Source of the DNA: an uncultured Methanosarcinales archaeon
GTDB lineage: Archaea > Halobacteriota > Methanosarcinia > Methanotrichales > Methanotrichaceae
Length of the DNA stretch: 64,000 bases
Assembly (NCBI GenBank): GCA_963843555.1
Contig: CAWJKV010000002.1
Coordinates: 1 to 64,000 of the forward strand
Reading direction: 5' to 3'
The position numbers were made by a program. Positions 21,001-27,000 of the stretch are shown one piece after another (the stretch's first letter is position 1; each line of letters opens with the position of its first letter).

Positions 21001-24000
21001 GGCAGCCAACTGGACAATGATAGGCGCAGACGAGAGCGGTCCCTCCTCCTGGAGCTCTTGGAGCTACAATAATGAGGATGGCCGGGCCTGGGACGGTTTC
21101 TTGATGGCTCTGGAGCTTCCCGGGACTGATGAGAAACAGAGGTTCGTCTTAATGCAGGCCACCTATAACTACAGCCTCGAGCTGGACGGGGTACAGCCCC
21201 TGCAGGAAAATCTGTCCCAGGATATGCCCCTGGACCTGCCTATTCCTGAGGGTGCCAGGATCGTGACAAATGAGATCGAGGAAGAAACAGGAATCCTTGT
21301 GATTCTGGATGTCCCCCTGACACCGGAGCTGACTTTGGATTTCTATCGGGAGCGTCTGGCCTCTCAAAACTGGACGGTGATCGAGATTCCAGGCATGAAC
21401 CAAGGATTTGTAGAACAAGGTGTTTTCAACAAGGCGTTCTGCCAGGGTCTCAAGAATTCCTCGATGGCACTTACCGCTACTCCTCAGGAAAATGGAACTT
21501 ACCTCAGTATGAGTATCATGAGTGATCCTGATTATTCATTTTGCTCACAGGGACCGAGCTTCTTCGGTGACTGGCTGAATCCAATTCCAATGCTGACTAT
21601 ACCCAACGGAACTATGATGTTCAACCCGAACTCCATGGGCGGTCCAAACAGTACGCAGGCGGTCTCGGCAACTCTGGAGACGGAGATGAACAGTTCCTCT
21701 CTGACGGCCTATTATGCCGATCAGCTCAAGGCAGCCAACTGGACAATGATGAGCGAAGGTGAGAGCGGTCTCTCTTCCTGGAGCATCTGGAGCATCGAGG
21801 ATGAGAATGGCCGGGCCTGGCAAGGTTTCTTAGTGGCTCTGGAACTTCCTGGAACTGATGGGAAGCAGAAGTTCGTCCTAATGCAGGCCAACATGTTGGA
21901 GAATTACTTCTTGAATGTATGAAGTTTAAATATTTTTTAATTTTTCCCAATTGGTCTGCTGACGGCACTGGGATTCCGTGCAGCAACCCGTGATCGGGAT
22001 TTGCCTCTTGTGAAGAGACAGATCCTTTCGCCGCACGCCAATCGCCGAGTGTGGGGTTATAGCGATGAAAAGATCGAATCCCCTGTTGCAGCTCGCATTT
22101 TCTGGAATTCTGGTATCTACGATCATGGGCCAGGGTTATACGATGCCGATCCTATTGGTATGATTTCGATCATCTTTTTTCAGAAGAGGAGTCCGGCCTT
22201 GGCAGTTCGGCCGGAGCCCAACGACAGGCGGATGAACGGTAAAGGAGGTCAATCACTTTTCTGTCGCTATTCCTGAGATTAGGATATAACCTGTTAATAA
22301 GCTTTTTGTATTTCGTAGCAATAAGGCACTTGGTGAGTGCACTGGCGCGTTATCCGCCCATCTCAGTCATCCTCATAAATCGGCTTCTCCGGCACCAGGT
22401 AGATGGTCCAGAAGACCAGGAGGGTTATTATGGCCTTTACTATGATGATTGGTCCAGATCATCTGCTGCAGGCCTGCAGCTCCCACTATCCCCGCAAAAG
22501 CGATGAGGGGAAAGAGCAGGCTGTCCACAGGGATGGAGACGGCATTGGAGGCGAAGACCCGCGTCCACTGCGGCCAATTTCGCCGTTTCCCGCGCGTCCA
22601 GAGGTGATAGACCTTGGTATCGATCAGCTCGGCCAGCAGCGCCGTCAGTATGGAGCCTATGACGATCCTCATCTGCAGGGAGAATATCGATTGCCACCCA
22701 GAGCCCGAGGTGTCTATGATGCCGAAGAGGAACGCCCAGGCCGTCTGGCCTCCGCTATTTGCCCAATCCGTTTGGGCGGGCAGCAGAACCACCAGTTGAA
22801 AATAGAGAGCGGCGAGCAGGTTGAAGCCCGCCGCCAGCCAGATGGTGGTTATGGCCGCCTTTTGGCCGAGCTGCTTATGGATCAGGTCCCGCCAGGTGAA
22901 GGTCAGGGAATATATGAAACCGGCATCCATGACCAGGCTGCCGAAATAGGTGACCTTGGTGGCGGCAATGTTTCCTGCCAGCGAGAAGAAAAGGTACAGC
23001 CCGCAGAGAATTATGGTGGCCTGAGTCTTGTCGATGCGGAGTCTGCCGCCCAGGAGCCCATTTCTGTCCGGTTTGCCTATGTCTTCTGGCTCCTGTACAT
23101 TCGCTTCCTGGCTCTGCTGCTGTCTTTGTCTGCGATCTGCTAAATCGTTCTCAGCCATTTATTCTTGAGTTCCATAAAAGTCCCTGCTCTTATGCTTTCC
23201 CTAAGATCTCTCCATGAAGCGGAGCATGAAATGGAGATTATGAATCGTTGCTAACCGGAAATAGGAGAGCTCCCCGCAGACGTAAAGATGGCGAAGATAG
23301 GCTCGCGAGTAGGTGCGGCAGGTCGAGCAGCTGCAGTTGGGGTCGAGGGGCAGCTCATCTTCTTTGAATTTAGCTGACTTTATATTTATGTGGAACTTGT
23401 TCTGCAAGCGATCCGCCCGATTCCGGCGAGAGGAAGAGGCTTCCCCTGCGAGCGATTCTCGTCGGCGAGACGCAGTCGAAGGTATCGATTCCTCTGGCTA
23501 CGCATTCAAAGATGTCGTCTATCTCCCCTATCCCCAGGAGATGGCGCGGCCGGTCGTCCAATCTGGGAACCGTCCAGTCCAGAACCTGATGCATATCTTG
23601 CTTGCTGTTTCCCAGAGATCCGCCGATGGCGATGCCGTCAAAGGATTGGGATGCGATGGCTTCGGTGCTCATGCCGCCGCAGGTCCTCAAACCAACCGCC
23701 CTGGATTATGCCGTAGATGGCCTGGTTTTTGTCGTGATACCGAATGGACTGATCCGCCCAATCATGGGTTCGCAGCATGGCTTTCTTGGTGTATTCGTAG
23801 TCGGAGAGGGGAGAAGTACATTCGTCAAAAGCCATGATGATGTCGGAATCGAGATTGGACTGAATTTTCATCGACTTTTCCGCATTCAAGAAATGCCAGG
23901 CTCCGTCGGCCATGGACTTGAAGGAGATGCCGTCGTCAGTGATCCTGGTCAGATTCTCCTTCTTCACTATTTTTGGACCTTTCTTGGCAATCTCTCGGGA

Positions 24001-27000
24001 CCTTTTGCTCCCTTCGCTGCTCTCACCATAGTCCCTTCTGTAATTCGATTTATAAATCTCGCAGAAGTCAGTTGTGTCCTGACAATCGCCATCTTCTGAA
24101 CACTCACTGAGAGGCTGTTTTAAATCGTGCTGGTTTGAATTGCCCCCCCCTTCTGGAAGAGACTCTTTTTTCTCTTCGCCCGCGGGGCAGGAGAGCTCCT
24201 GCGGGAAGATGTTACCGATCTTGCTGATGTTGTGCTCTCTTCCAAAGCCCAGAGAGAAGGCCTGAAAGCCGCCCGAGTCGGTAAACAGCGGCCCGGCAAA
24301 TCCCATGAACCTGTGCAGCCCGCCCAGCCGTTTGATCAGCTCGTCTCCCGGCTTCAGGTGAAGATGGTAGGTGTTGGCAAGAGCGCACTGGACGCCCAAA
24401 GATGCCAGATCGTCTGAGCCAAGAGCTCGCACGCTTCCCAGGGTTGCCACCGGCACCAGATAGGGCGTCTCGATATCTCCGCGCCTGGTTCTTATCAGCC
24501 CGAGCCTGGCCTGAGTCTCTTTATCCTGGTCAAGGATTTCAAAAGAAAATCTATTCATTTCATATTACCTGATCTGATCCCTGGTTTCATGACTCATGTG
24601 CCATGTTGTTTATGGACTTTATGGCATTGCACTTCCTGACCATTCTAATTCTCATGGAGTCTACGACGAACACATAAATTGTGTCTAAAGGTTCCATTTT
24701 GCCAAACGCCAAATCCTTAATATCAGGAGAGTATTGGGACTAATGGTGATTTTCTCATGTCAAAAAGCCAACGCATTGTGCTGCTATTTCTTGCGCTATC
24801 AATTCTCTCGATCTCGGCTATGGCCCAGAGCTCGAATTATAGCGTGAACCTATCTGCAAACAAGTTCCTGGGCAGCTATCTTGTTAACCAGAGCGGCTTT
24901 GCCCTTTACTACCTATGCAAGCGACAGAAGATGCCAACGGCGCCAGCGCCTGCTATGATGCATGTGCCAACACGTGGACGCCATTTTATGCAGAAAGGAT
25001 AACCTCACCGGACGGTCTGAATCCCGCGGACTTTGCCACCATAACCAGAACCGACGGATCAAGGCAGACGACCTATAAGGGCTGGCCGCTCTACCTCTAT
25101 TCCAGGGATCGAAGCCGCTGGCGATGTTTTCGGAAGTGGCAAAGAAAACGGCCTCTGGCACGTCGTCAGCCCGACGGATCAATCTCAGCTCTTCTGAAAT
25201 CCTGCAAGAGAAAAATATGATTGAATTGTGAGGCTTCGACTCTGAGCCTCACATCCAACTCAATCTTATCGCCTGCTACTTCTTTAGCGATCCTATGGTC
25301 GTCGGGATGGCAGCATAGGGAAAGATCTCAAATCCGCGGGGGAACTTGAAGCTTCTTTGGCCAAGCTCCTTATCCGCGGCCTTCAGGGCAGCGCTGTCAC
25401 TTCCCGCCGCCTGAACTCTTTTCAGGACATTGTCCGAGGACTCCTCTTCTTCCACCTGCTCCTCCACGTACCACTGCAAGAAGCACTTCGTCGCCTGCGT
25501 CGGACTCGCTCTCGGCTACGTCCACAAGCGCATGAATGAGCCCGGTCACCGCCCGCTCATGATCCCAGACGTGCTGGAAAGCCTGCAGGGGCGAGTCCCA
25601 GGAGAACTGTGGGGCTTCCACCGCCATCATCCTGGCTCTTCCGCCGGAATTTGCCACGTAGTCCAGCATCTTCATGGTATGCACCAGCTCCTCTCCCGCC
25701 TGTGCTCTCATCCAGCTGGCAAAGCCCGTCAATGCAGTCGACTCAAAATAGTAGGACATGGAGAGATAGAGATATGAGGAATACAACTCTCTATTCGCCT
25801 GCACATTCAGAGCTTCATTCATCTTTTCGCTGAGCATGGCAACACTCCTTGTATTTCATATCCGCAATATTCATCCGAAGCTATTCCATCTTCTTGAACA
25901 TCTCTTTTCCCACGCCACATTCCGGACAGGTCCAGTCGTCGGGCAGGTCTTCGAAGGCTGTTCCTGGAGCGATGCTGGAAGCCGAATCTCCCTTCTCTGG
26001 ATCGTAGATGTATCCACAGACTGTGCAGACGTACTTGTCCATTTTTCACTCACCACTTATCTTTCTTAGACTTCGATCTAAATAAAATCTTCCAGCGCGT
26101 GCCGCTATCTTTGCATCTCTCTCGGCAAGATTCGGCTTGAATTCAAGGAAGGCCTGGTCCAGCCGGGGCGCATCAATCTCGTAGAACTTGCCGAGGGGAA
26201 TGGGTTTTTCAAGGCTGTCATAGTTCCAGGAGCGGATGATCTTCTGGGCCTCTTCAAAGCTGCCGGTATTGTTTCCCTGCACCTCGTAGGTCATCTTGTT
26301 GTAGCCTCGTACAGGTTGAAGTAGGATACACAGACCTGGAGCACATCCACAAAAGAGAAGCCCTTATGCAATATCGCTTCGCGGAAGAGCTTCTGCAGTT
26401 GTTCAATGCCGTGCGTGTAGCCCCGGGCGATAAAAGAGGCTCCACTGGCAAGCATCAGATCGGGTGGGTTCAGGGGATGCTCAGCTGAGCCCGCGGGCGT
26501 GGACTTGCCTTTGAAGCCCAGCGGCGACGTCGGCGTGTACTGGCCGGTGGTCAAGCCGTAGACGCGGTTGTCGTGCAGGATCAGGGTTATGTCGATGTTC
26601 CTCTTGGCCGCGAAGATGAGATGGTCCAGTCCCTCGGCCAGGCTGTCGCCGTCTCCCGAGAAGCAGATAACCTTCAGATCGGGATTGGCAAGCTTAATGG
26701 CCGTGGCTACAGGCAATCGTCCGGCCGTGGATGGAATAGAAGCTGTTCACATTCATGTAATCCACGATCTTGCCGTGGCAGCCGATACCGGAGACCAGAA
26801 CGACCTTCTCTATGGGGAAGCCTTCTTCGTCCAGCTGTGCCAGAACAGTCCTCATGGCGCTGAGGATGGAGAAGTTGCCGCAGCCGGGACACCAGGTGTT
26901 CTTGGCTGAGGTATTGAGATCTTTAGGATTCATGCCTGTTCCTCCCTGCCTTTACCGTTCCAGCTCAGAATTCAGGTCGTCTAACGAAAACGGCCTTCCA

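What a model noticed while it worked through the whole genome (the two positions that open the first line are those of the whole stretch)
22373..24558. Bacterial-type queuine-inserting TGT plus QPTR/YhhQ transporter operon: a queuine-salvage route to Q34-tRNA in an archae [...]
Besides its archaeosine TGT (g01620, TIGR00432) the genome carries a bacterial-type tRNA-guanine(34) transglycosylase (g00079+g00078, split here by assembly indels) overlapping a QPTR/YhhQ (Vut_1) transporter gene (g00077). Its pocket has Gly at Z. mobilis position 233 (GGSLG), the enlarged queuine-accepting form, and QueA is missing, so the pair predicts direct queuine salvage and Q34 in tRNA-Asp/Asn/His/Tyr, as in Chlamydia, although Q is described as absent from Archaea.
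Evidence so far: Intact 404-492-aa orthologs in 36 of 60 family genomes; alignment keeps DSGG, FDECT, QG, GGSLG and the CxCxxC/H zinc site. PDB search with an intact ortholog: Z. mobilis TGT E 2e-90, no archaeal TGT among 54 hits at E<=1e-20; the best-scoring chains read GGLAGG at the pocket. yhhQ within 1.5 kb in 18 of 19 relatives' loci; across 99 loci 72 have both GGSLG and yhhQ, 15 GGSLG only, including a Bathyarchaeia and a Woesearchaeota locus and two more Halobacteriota families. queA: 0 of 25 family genomes, control rings in 9 bacteria. All four GUN tRNAs keep U33-G34-U35. V233G as the queuine determinant: PMC5699537, PMC11570991 (passages, calls 32, 33); Q stated absent from Archaea: PMC8879553, PMC [...]
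(Added by a program. Inside this text positions count along the whole contig: contig position 1 is position 1 of the stretch shown here. "Call 12" and the like, gene names such as g00115 and contig names such as C1 are that model's own, and its searches are not shown. The text may have been shortened before it was handed on; [...] marks where a part breaks off. The agent that wrote the report below was given it as the finding of a first reader that could run no searches.)

Follow-up and report, generated by a model that had tools for sequence, protein, structure and literature searches.

The report
Bacterial-type tRNA base salvage in methanogens
Methanothrix methanogens, and related anaerobic archaea such as Archaeoglobus, keep a bacterial-style tRNA wobble-base-swapping enzyme beside its own importer, which suggests they scavenge a base made by bacteria (most likely queuine) for a tRNA modification that textbooks say archaea lack, although which base is inserted is still untested.

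Summary
Window 24558-23140 (-) is a bacterial-type tRNA-guanine(34) transglycosylase overlapping a QPTR/YhhQ gene; four single-base insertions look like assembly errors. Orthologs occur in 56 of 81 Methanotrichaceae genomes, under purifying selection. QueA is in 0 of 81. A dedicated transporter is in 55 of 56 carriers and 0 of 25 non-carriers. The same GGSLG subtype occurs in Archaeoglobus-type, ANME-1-type and DPANN archaea.

The loop is one residue short, and by homology its Gly is Gly234 and Leu replaces Val233. V233G alone did not confer queuine insertion (PMC3660597). Cys158 is kept.

Queuine salvage to Q34 remains most likely (0.55), from shared branch and loop with Chlamydiales enzymes and the absence of QueA. 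Terminal preQ1 (0.25) and preQ0 (0.1) are live rivals.

Bacterial Q genes in archaea are in print for the QueA route (PMC8204110). I found this QueA-less pair in none of ten searches. This scan noted it twice before on other DNA.

The parts
23140..24558 (-). Bacterial-type tRNA-guanine(34) transglycosylase of the short-loop GGSLG/HLLGIG subtype, about 471 aa if intact; three single-base insertions in this assembly (about 23680, 23407, 23209)
   Evidence: intact orthologs; AF2 model of ortholog P0001 pLDDT 88.8, Z 53.3 / rmsd 1.3 / 363 aligned to 1q2r and Z 52.5 to human 7nq4
23958..24204 (-). 82-aa low-complexity insertion inside the TGT, after the DSGGFQ motif; 10-84 aa in 55 orthologs; predicted disordered
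   Evidence: pLDDT<50 at residues 124-167 of P0001
23614..23631 (-). Substrate-pocket loop GGSLGN (approximate coordinates): one residue shorter than canonical GGL[AS][VI]GE, with no Glu235
22363..23158 (-). QPTR/YhhQ (Vut_1, COG1738) transporter, TGT-linked 'type A' clade; start overlaps the TGT stop by 19 nt; one single-base insertion near 22446

Best explanation
A two-gene salvage operon. The type-A QPTR imports a 7-deazaguanine base made by neighbouring bacteria, most likely free queuine. The short-loop TGT excises G34 from tRNA-Asp, -Asn, -His and -Tyr (Asp102/Asp280 ping-pong exchange) and inserts that base, giving Q34 with no need for QueF, QueA or QueG/H. It runs beside the native archaeosine pathway (QueC/D/E, arcTGT, ArcS), which makes preQ0 for G15. 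If the enzyme behaves like the human one, the cell's own preQ0 would enter position 34 only reversibly, while queuine would stay. SHOWN: genes, motifs, fold, selection, co-occurrence, missing QueA/QueF/QueH. INFERRED: G34 as target (strong), import by the QPTR (strong), queuine as the base (moderate), the discrimination against preQ0 (weak).
For: (1) G34-type enzyme: no PUA tail; PDB search E 3e-85 for bacterial chains, 3e-68 for human QTRT1 and 1e-13 for arcTGT 1iq8; best structural matches are the RNA-bound bacterial and human enzymes. (2) Functional: dN/dS 0.04-0.13 for TGT (10 pairs) and 0.05-0.15 for QPTR (9 pairs). (3) No maturation of preQ1: queA 0 of 81 and queH 1 of 81, on a 1.7-kb contig. 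InterPro counts for Methanotrichaceae are TGT 19, QueA 0, QueG 0, QueH 0, QueF 0, QueC 35 (PMC11570991 Table S1 row). (4) Halobacteriota draw of 301 genomes: 50 carry a bacterial TGT. queA is in exactly the 6 with a long GGL[CS]IGE loop, adjacent to tgt, and in 0 of the other 44. The pocket was read for 43 of 50 (37 GGSLG, 6 long). The 6 QueA genomes have no QPTR, while 28 of 28 f7 and 7 of 7 f14 carriers do. (5) Second phylum (DPANN draw, 156 genomes): strict GGS[LM]G+Cys158 enzymes have queA in 0 of 8 and an adjacent QPTR in 4 of 8. (6) Dedicated transporter although preQ0 is made in-house: queC in 79 of 81. Type A QPTR is in 50 of 56 carriers, type C in 5 more, and neither in the 25 non-carriers; stand-alone QPTR clades B and D occur regardless of the TGT. 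Two unrelated QPTR clades were recruited next to the same TGT. (7) The enzyme falls on the same branch (SH-aLRT 92) as named Chlamydiales TGTs, which share GGSLG/HLLGIG. C. trachomatis TGT and QPTR salvage queuine (statements in PMC11570991 and PMC11130926). A model of Anaplasma GGSLG TGT leaves 4.0 A to queuine (PMC11570991 Fig. S1 legend). (8) Guanine displaces preQ0 but not queuine or preQ1 in the human enzyme (PMC8136771 passages).
Against: No biochemistry. Gly233 is not established; by homology the residue is Leu. V233G was not sufficient in Z. mobilis TGT. Cys158 and Gln203 are kept, unlike Chlamydiales Leu158/His203. The short loop alone is not diagnostic: GGAFG enzymes have queA in 3 of 3 and G[SG][IL]FG enzymes in 3 of 7 DPANN genomes. 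Three of 5 bacteria with short loops carry queA; one of them has a second TGT (unpublished G396). Absence of queA alone is not diagnostic: 45 of 57 long-loop DPANN genomes lack it, though these are incomplete MAGs. No QueK-like hydrolase in 5 of 5 near-complete genomes, so only the free base could be used. The dichotomy rests on few independent gains; the archaeal GGSLG enzymes of Halobacteriota form one clade (97). A review table notes that A. fulgidus bulk tRNA nucleosides were surveyed but does not list Q (PMC6313347 passage); the primary paper was not held.
Confidence: 0.55

Rival explanations
1. preQ1 salvage with preQ1-34 as the end product (Bartonella-like): the transporter imports bacterial preQ1, the enzyme inserts it, and nothing matures it further.
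For: Cys158 is invariant and favours preQ1. The Val233 homolog is Leu, which is bulkier. With no QueF (f1 0 of 8; own genome), preQ1 must be imported, which explains the transporter link equally well. Bartonella precedent. Related short-loop enzymes work with QueA.
Against: Glu235, which holds the flipped peptide in the preQ1 complex, is absent in nearly all members. Bartonella keeps the canonical GGLAVG. The enzyme branches with tgt-only lineages rather than with canonical preQ1 enzymes. Only trace preQ1 was seen in Bartonella tRNA.
Confidence: 0.25
2. preQ0 at position 34: the enzyme uses the cell's own archaeosine precursor, topped up by import, giving preQ0-34 or, speculatively, archaeosine at the wobble position.
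For: queC in 79 of 81 genomes. Like arcTGT, the enzyme lacks the Glu235 equivalent. Archaeal COG1738 proteins were proposed to salvage preQ0 (PMC5372724 passage). No QueA is needed.
Against: A dedicated, co-lost transporter is unnecessary when preQ0 is made in-house and stand-alone QPTRs exist. Chlamydiales and Anaplasmataceae with the same loop largely lack preQ0 genes (PMC11570991 Table S2). preQ0 insertion is reversible in the human enzyme.
Confidence: 0.1
3. Another target or base (a non-tRNA RNA, DNA as for DpdA, or an unknown 7-substituted base), or a pseudogene in this strain.
For: A weak DpdA-family hit (E 7.5e-5). A long variable insertion sits next to the tRNA-contacting loop. The window copy is broken at four places.
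Against: The Tgt score far exceeds DpdA. No dpd or phage neighbours recur in 79 loci. The four extra bases are missing from relatives' contigs, and neighbouring ferritin and oxidoreductase genes are broken in the same way.
Confidence: 0.1

Closest known systems
Chlamydia trachomatis queuine salvage (TGT + QPTR)
   Same: tgt-only pathway with a QPTR. Named Chlamydiales TGTs share GGSLG and HLLGIG and fall on the same branch.
   Different: The archaeal enzyme keeps Cys158 and Gln203 (Chlamydiales: Leu, His) and has a variable insertion. The host makes preQ0 and archaeosine. The C. trachomatis sequence itself was not retrieved, and the relation of its QPTR to type A was not tested.
Canonical bacterial Tgt (E. 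coli, Z. mobilis; TIGR00430; preQ1-inserting)
   Same: Fold (Z 53, rmsd 1.3), Asp102/Asp156/Gln203/Asp280, Cys158, zinc site; about 44% identity.
   Different: Pocket loop one residue shorter, no Glu235, HLLGIG in place of YLMGVG; no QueF, QueA or QueG/H in the host.
Bartonella henselae tgt + QPTR (preQ1-preferring; PMC11570991)
   Same: Same gene inventory (tgt and QPTR, no QueA).
   Different: Bartonella keeps GGLAVG; the archaeal enzyme has the short loop.
Archaeal QueA-QueH-Tgt loci (Castelle et al. 2021, PMC8204110)
   Same: A bacterial-type TGT in archaea, including Methanosarcinales and DPANN.
   Different: Those are tied to QueA. In my draw the QueA-linked enzymes have the long loop, lie on another branch and have no QPTR.
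Archaeoglobus fulgidus 'putative queuine tRNA-ribosyltransferase' (database annotation)
   Same: Same subtype (GGSLGKSK, FDECT) and sister clade.
   Different: An annotation only; its linked transporter, where adjacent, is type C (9 of 29 loci).
Archaeosine TGT (arcTGT, TIGR00432, PDB 1iq8)
   Same: TGT fold; no Glu235; a true arcTGT is present elsewhere in the genome.
   Different: E 1e-13 against 1e-85; no C-terminal PUA domains; pocket GGVVP against GGSLG.

Membership tests
Bacterial tRNA-guanine(34) transglycosylase (TIGR00430) | Score above the curated cut-off (306.75 bits) | tested here: met
   Intact family orthologs score 426-467 bits; the window's broken pieces score 230 and 105
Bacterial tRNA-guanine(34) transglycosylase (TIGR00430) | Catalytic Asp102, Asp156, Asp280, Gln203 and the CxCxxC..H zinc site | tested here: met
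Bacterial tRNA-guanine(34) transglycosylase (TIGR00430) | TIM barrel plus zinc domain, without the PUA extension | tested here: met
   AF2 model and VIA-align Z 53.3 to 1q2r, model range 1-449
Bacterial tRNA-guanine(34) transglycosylase (TIGR00430) | Exchanges G34 in UGU anticodon loops | not testable with these tools
   Substrate tRNAs are present; activity needs an assay
Canonical preQ1-inserting Tgt | GGL[AS]VGE loop with Val233 and Glu235 | tested here: not met
   GGSLG[NK], one residue short, no Glu
Canonical preQ1-inserting Tgt | QueA and QueG/QueH in the genome | tested here: not met
   queA 0 of 81, queH 1 of 81; QueG not searched by me, InterPro count 0
Queuine-inserting TGT (eukaryotic / Chlamydia type) | Printed motif GG[LS][AS]G, i.e. 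Gly at 233 | tested here: inconclusive
   The literal motif is not matched (fourth letter L). By homology Gly is 234. Counted from GG it is 233, as in the Anaplasma model. No residue-level structural alignment was available
Queuine-inserting TGT (eukaryotic / Chlamydia type) | Position 158 not Cys (Val in human, Leu in Chlamydiales records) | tested here: not met
   Cys158 invariant
Queuine-inserting TGT (eukaryotic / Chlamydia type) | tgt-only inventory (no QueF, QueA, QueG/H) with a transporter | tested here: met
Queuine-inserting TGT (eukaryotic / Chlamydia type) | Inserts queuine | not testable with these tools
   needs an assay
QPTR/YhhQ (COG1738, PF02592) | Vut_1 domain above the gathering score | tested here: met
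   100 bits against 27.2; TIGR00697 50.5 against 50.95 for the frameshifted copy
QPTR/YhhQ (COG1738, PF02592) | Substrate subgroup (q, preQ0 or preQ1) | tested here: inconclusive
   Type A is a distinct clade; best named plasmid relatives about 33% identical; no characterised member was placed
Archaeosine TGT (TIGR00432) | Cut-off of 350 bits, PUA domains, GGVVP pocket | tested here: not met
   78.7 bits

The most novel reading that the evidence does not exclude
[quoted passage not shown] It is obtained by importing queuine from bacterial partners through an old, archaea-wide TGT subtype that must tell queuine from the cell's own preQ0. These cells would carry both archaeosine at position 15 and queuosine at position 34, and queuine would be a cross-domain micronutrient in methanogenic consortia.
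Probability: 0.5. Interest if true: 0.8.

Novelty: new variant of a known kind. Interest (0 to 1): 0.6.

Why it matters
Reviews state that Q34 is not found in Archaea (PMC8879553 passage; PMC5372724 passage). The prediction can be tested directly in cultured organisms with standard APB gels or LC-MS. If right, the main acetate-using methanogens depend on a base made by bacteria for their decoding, and all three domains use Q. Whichever base is used, the enzyme works in a cell with its own preQ0 pool, a selectivity problem that Chlamydia and human cells do not face. The register result also matters for annotation: 'GGSLG means Gly233 means queuine' should not be propagated without an assay.

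Tried and rejected
Residue-level pocket geometry: the fold tools gave no coordinates or per-residue alignment, so the 3D register is open. C. trachomatis TGT itself was not among the 120 listed hits of a search with a Chlamydiales enzyme; only environmental Chlamydiales records were compared. Qng1 (PF10343): 0 of 5 genomes, but no control rang, so this is uninformative. queC in the window's own genome: not found by family or by DNA; the genome is 82% complete, so this is not read as loss. Rfam: no match at 20000-27000, so no preQ1 riboswitch reached threshold. The sigma-70 promoter and terminator scan was at chance level and does not suit archaea. ESM Atlas returned only family names. Plasmid searches found only distant relatives. 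Sequencing runs: none held half the words (best 0.19), so the strain's own reads were not seen. Relatives' contigs in two metatranscriptome runs cover both genes (28 and 19 of 30 bins), and one 439-nt contig touches both; DNA carry-over is not excluded and no silent control was laid, so this is not counted as proof of expression. 'Short loop means no QueA' and 'long loop means QueA' were rejected as general rules. The FastTree root on arcTGT separated Chlamydiales from the other short-loop rows; I take this as long-branch attraction, and the IQ-TREE run without that outgroup joined them (SH-aLRT only; 72 of the available rows; no AU test). Papers not held: Yuan et al. 2019 PNAS, the 1991 archaeal nucleoside survey, the 2024 MMBR deazaguanine review; any of these may bear on novelty. 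Figure 4 of PMC8204110 and Figures 3 and S1 of PMC11570991 were seen as legends only; the 'TGTpocket' column of Table S2 was empty in the text copy.

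
Full report
1. What is in the window. On the minus strand a TGT gene starts at 24558 and runs through successive frames to a stop at about 23140. 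The first piece scores E 3e-68 on TIGR00430 (bacterial Tgt) but only 3e-22 on TIGR00432 (archaeal TgtA); the second scores E 5e-30 on TIGR00430. A Vut_1/QPTR gene starts at 23158, overlapping the TGT end by 19 nt. The genome's archaeosine-type TGT and an ArcS-like gene lie on contig C7. Record titles of the closest loci name Methanothrix and Methanotrichaceae.

2. The breaks look like assembly errors. Against the near relative G094 the TGT has three single-base insertions. Contigs of related organisms in public runs leave out one base at 22446, 23208/9, 23407 and 23680. Genome-wide, 10 of 65 testable alignments show a frame change (0.2 per kb), and 5 of these lie at C2 23-28 kb, including ferritin and oxidoreductase genes. 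The strain's own reads were not found, so local decay is not formally excluded.

3. The gene is real, conserved and of the G34 type. It is in 56 of 81 family genomes at E<=1e-40, including 34 of 34 of the genus and 0 of 16 of genus g16. dN/dS is 0.04-0.13 over 10 pairs for the TGT core and 0.05-0.15 over 9 pairs for the QPTR. Catalytic and zinc residues are kept. PDB sequence search gives E 3e-85 for bacterial chains, 3e-68 for human QTRT1 and 1e-13 for arcTGT. The AF2 model (pLDDT 88.8) matches the RNA-trapped Z. mobilis enzyme at Z 53.3 and the human one at Z 52.5, which are tied. An insertion of 10-84 aa (82 here) is predicted disordered. It sits where the E. coli L98-I104 loop stacks on base 37 (alignment break; PMC13416341 passages).

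4. Pathway inventory. queA is in 0 of 81 and queH in 1 of 81 family genomes. QueF was not found in the own genome or in 8 other family genomes. queC is in 79 of 81. A published InterPro tally agrees: Methanotrichaceae QueD 29, QueE 22, QueC 35, QueF 0, TGT 19, QueA 0, QueG 0, QueH 0 (PMC11570991 Table S1, one row seen). So these cells make preQ0, cannot reduce it to preQ1 and cannot mature preQ1 on tRNA.

5. The transporter is dedicated. QPTR hits in the family fall into score classes that match four well-supported clades in a 46-row tree. Type A, typed by score for all genomes and by tree for a subset, is in 50 of 56 TGT carriers. Type C is in 5 of the other 6. Neither is in the 25 non-carriers. 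Stand-alone clades B and D occur in non-carriers and as second copies in carriers; they are plausibly preQ0 importers for archaeosine (inference; cf. PMC5372724). In G094 type A has decayed and type C is present elsewhere. Two unrelated transporter clades recruited beside one enzyme argue for an imported substrate.

6. The subtype is wider than Methanothrix. In a draw of 301 Halobacteriota genomes, 50 have a bacterial TGT: f1 8, f7 28 (Archaeoglobus by protein names), f33 1, f14 7 (clustering with Methanospirareceae/ANME-1 records), and 6 in f4, f5 and f8. The pocket was read for 43 of the 50: 37 GGSLG and 6 GGL[CS]IGE. The 7 unread are six family members 64-75% identical to P0001 and one fragment. 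queA is in exactly those 6 long-loop genomes, next to tgt, and in none of the other 44. QPTR is in 0 of the 6, and in 28 of 28 f7 and 7 of 7 f14 carriers. In the phylum of the Woesearchaeota record, 83 of 156 genomes have a bacterial TGT and 20 have queA. The 8 strict GGS[LM]G enzymes there have queA in 0 of 8 and an adjacent QPTR in 4 of 8. Kin are not independent: the Halobacteriota GGSLG enzymes, with one Woesearchaeota row, two Paceibacterota rows and one unnamed protein, form one clade (SH-aLRT 97).

7. The pocket argument, tested. In 43 long-loop rows the loop reads L-[SA]-[VI]-G-E. In 56 short-loop rows it reads S(48)-[L 43/F 10]-G-[N 24, K 16, R 6, E 4] (111 of 153 rows parsed). The columns match only if residue 231 is deleted, which makes Leu the homolog of Val233 and the Gly that of Gly234; HMMER places the gap there too. 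Counting from GG gives Gly233, and a published Anaplasma GGSLG model leaves 4.0 A to queuine (legend). The geometry is therefore open. Even true V233G did not make Z. mobilis TGT insert queuine, and Km(preQ1) stayed near 0.6 uM (PMC3660597 passages). Cys158 favours preQ1 and is invariant here. Other short loops coexist with QueA: GGAFG 3 of 3 and G[SG][IL]FG 3 of 7, and 3 of 5 bacteria (this count includes the unpublished G396, which has a second TGT). Long loops often lack QueA in DPANN MAGs (45 of 57).

8. Why queuine still leads. The HLLG-type enzymes, including named Chlamydiales, Babeliales and GGALEK-type rows, form one side of a branch apart from canonical TGTs (92). The Chlamydiales rows share GGSLG and lack Glu235. 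C. trachomatis TGT and QPTR are reported to use queuine (primary paper not held). No genome with the strict motif in two archaeal phyla has QueA (0 of 44 in Halobacteriota, 7 of them unread at the pocket, and 0 of 8 in DPANN). Q is a known functional end product, whereas terminal preQ1 has been seen only in traces. The human enzyme accepts preQ0 but guanine displaces it, while queuine and preQ1 stay; this offers a way to live with an internal preQ0 pool. I put Q34 at 0.55, preQ1-34 at 0.25, preQ0-derived at 0.10 and other at 0.10. That some deazaguanine goes into G34 is about 0.9.

9. Prior art. Castelle et al. 2021 report complete or partial bacterial Q pathways in 34 archaeal genomes, including DPANN and Methanosarcinales (passages). 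The Table S5 rows I saw (16 TGT-family rows, and 15 of 27 places for the QueA family) are organised around QueA and QueH, and none is labelled Methanothrix or Archaeoglobus. The A. fulgidus protein has a database name 'putative queuine tRNA-ribosyltransferase', and NCBI names Methanothrix orthologs Tgt. Ten library searches found no paper describing the QueA-less TGT-QPTR pair in these archaea; 'queuosine' with 'Methanothrix' gave 0 papers. The library lacks most subscription papers, including the 2024 deazaguanine review. This scan noted the same subtype twice before on other genomes; those notes are not independent evidence.

10. Papers seen. PMC5699537: passages and one section. PMC11570991: abstract, one section, passages, supplement rows and legend text. 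PMC8204110: passages and supplement rows. PMC5372724, PMC11130926, PMC8879553, PMC6313347, PMC8136771, PMC13416341: passages. PMC3660597: abstract and passages. PMC3074131: abstract and Discussion part 1. Z. mobilis residue numbers not named in these passages are recalled.

11. Verdict. A real, selected, widespread archaeal variant of the known tgt-plus-QPTR salvage system. The substrate is unproven and the stated determinant is unsound, but the prediction is cheap to test in cultured archaea. Interest 0.6.

Noticed in passing
L185:1489-2223 (-), L187:1492-2280 (-), L186, L188 (family f7, Archaeoglobus-type): A fusion of about 245 aa of a nucleoside 2-deoxyribosyltransferase-like domain (PF05014, E 7e-7 and 1e-5) with a QueF-like domain (PF14489, E 2e-22). 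QueF hits occur in 17 of 46 f7 genomes: 13 of 18 without the bacterial TGT and 4 of 28 with it (4 loci read). Possibly a deazaguanine-nucleotide glycosidase coupled to a nitrile enzyme.
   Followed up: partly
DPANN draw, L203-L285: 83 of 156 genomes carry a bacterial-type TGT. A large divergent long-loop group (D-D-[MV] at 156-158, DSxxPT[QMA] lacking the following Arg) mostly lacks queA (45 of 57); its substrate is unknown.
   Followed up: partly
P0229 and its cluster: Dictyostelids encode a Chlamydiales/Babeliales-type GGSLG TGT, a possible gene transfer into social amoebae.
   Followed up: no
L102, L108: Two Paceibacterota-labelled contigs with bacterial-looking neighbours carry TGTs nested inside the Methanotrichaceae clade, suggesting transfer from archaea to CPR bacteria; G393 has two copies.
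   Followed up: partly
window about 14000-31300: A local cluster of split genes (ABC ATPase, CobN-like, ferritin, 2-oxoacid oxidoreductase subunits, cysteine desulfurase) near the contig end, well above the genome background of frame changes.
   Followed up: partly
L122:1469-3904 (G100) and L184:1435-2945 (G350): A divergent stand-alone QPTR in a prophage-like region near an ORF that looks TIM-barrel/DpdA-like by eye; a QueF next to a DSGG-bearing DpdA-like ORF. Possible DNA-modification clusters.
   Followed up: no
window 20312-21922 (+): A 536-aa secreted-looking protein with an internal duplication and no Pfam or NCBIfam match.
   Followed up: no
G000:C5:261634-261726: tRNA-Asn(GTT) is 93 nt with an apparent intron that ARAGORN did not call; tRNA-Tyr also has an intron. 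The order of splicing and G34 exchange would matter.
   Followed up: no
L053, L054, L055, L063, L070, L077, L080, L098, L101, L104: A subgroup reads DSAGFQ in place of DSGGFQ at the first catalytic motif.
   Followed up: no
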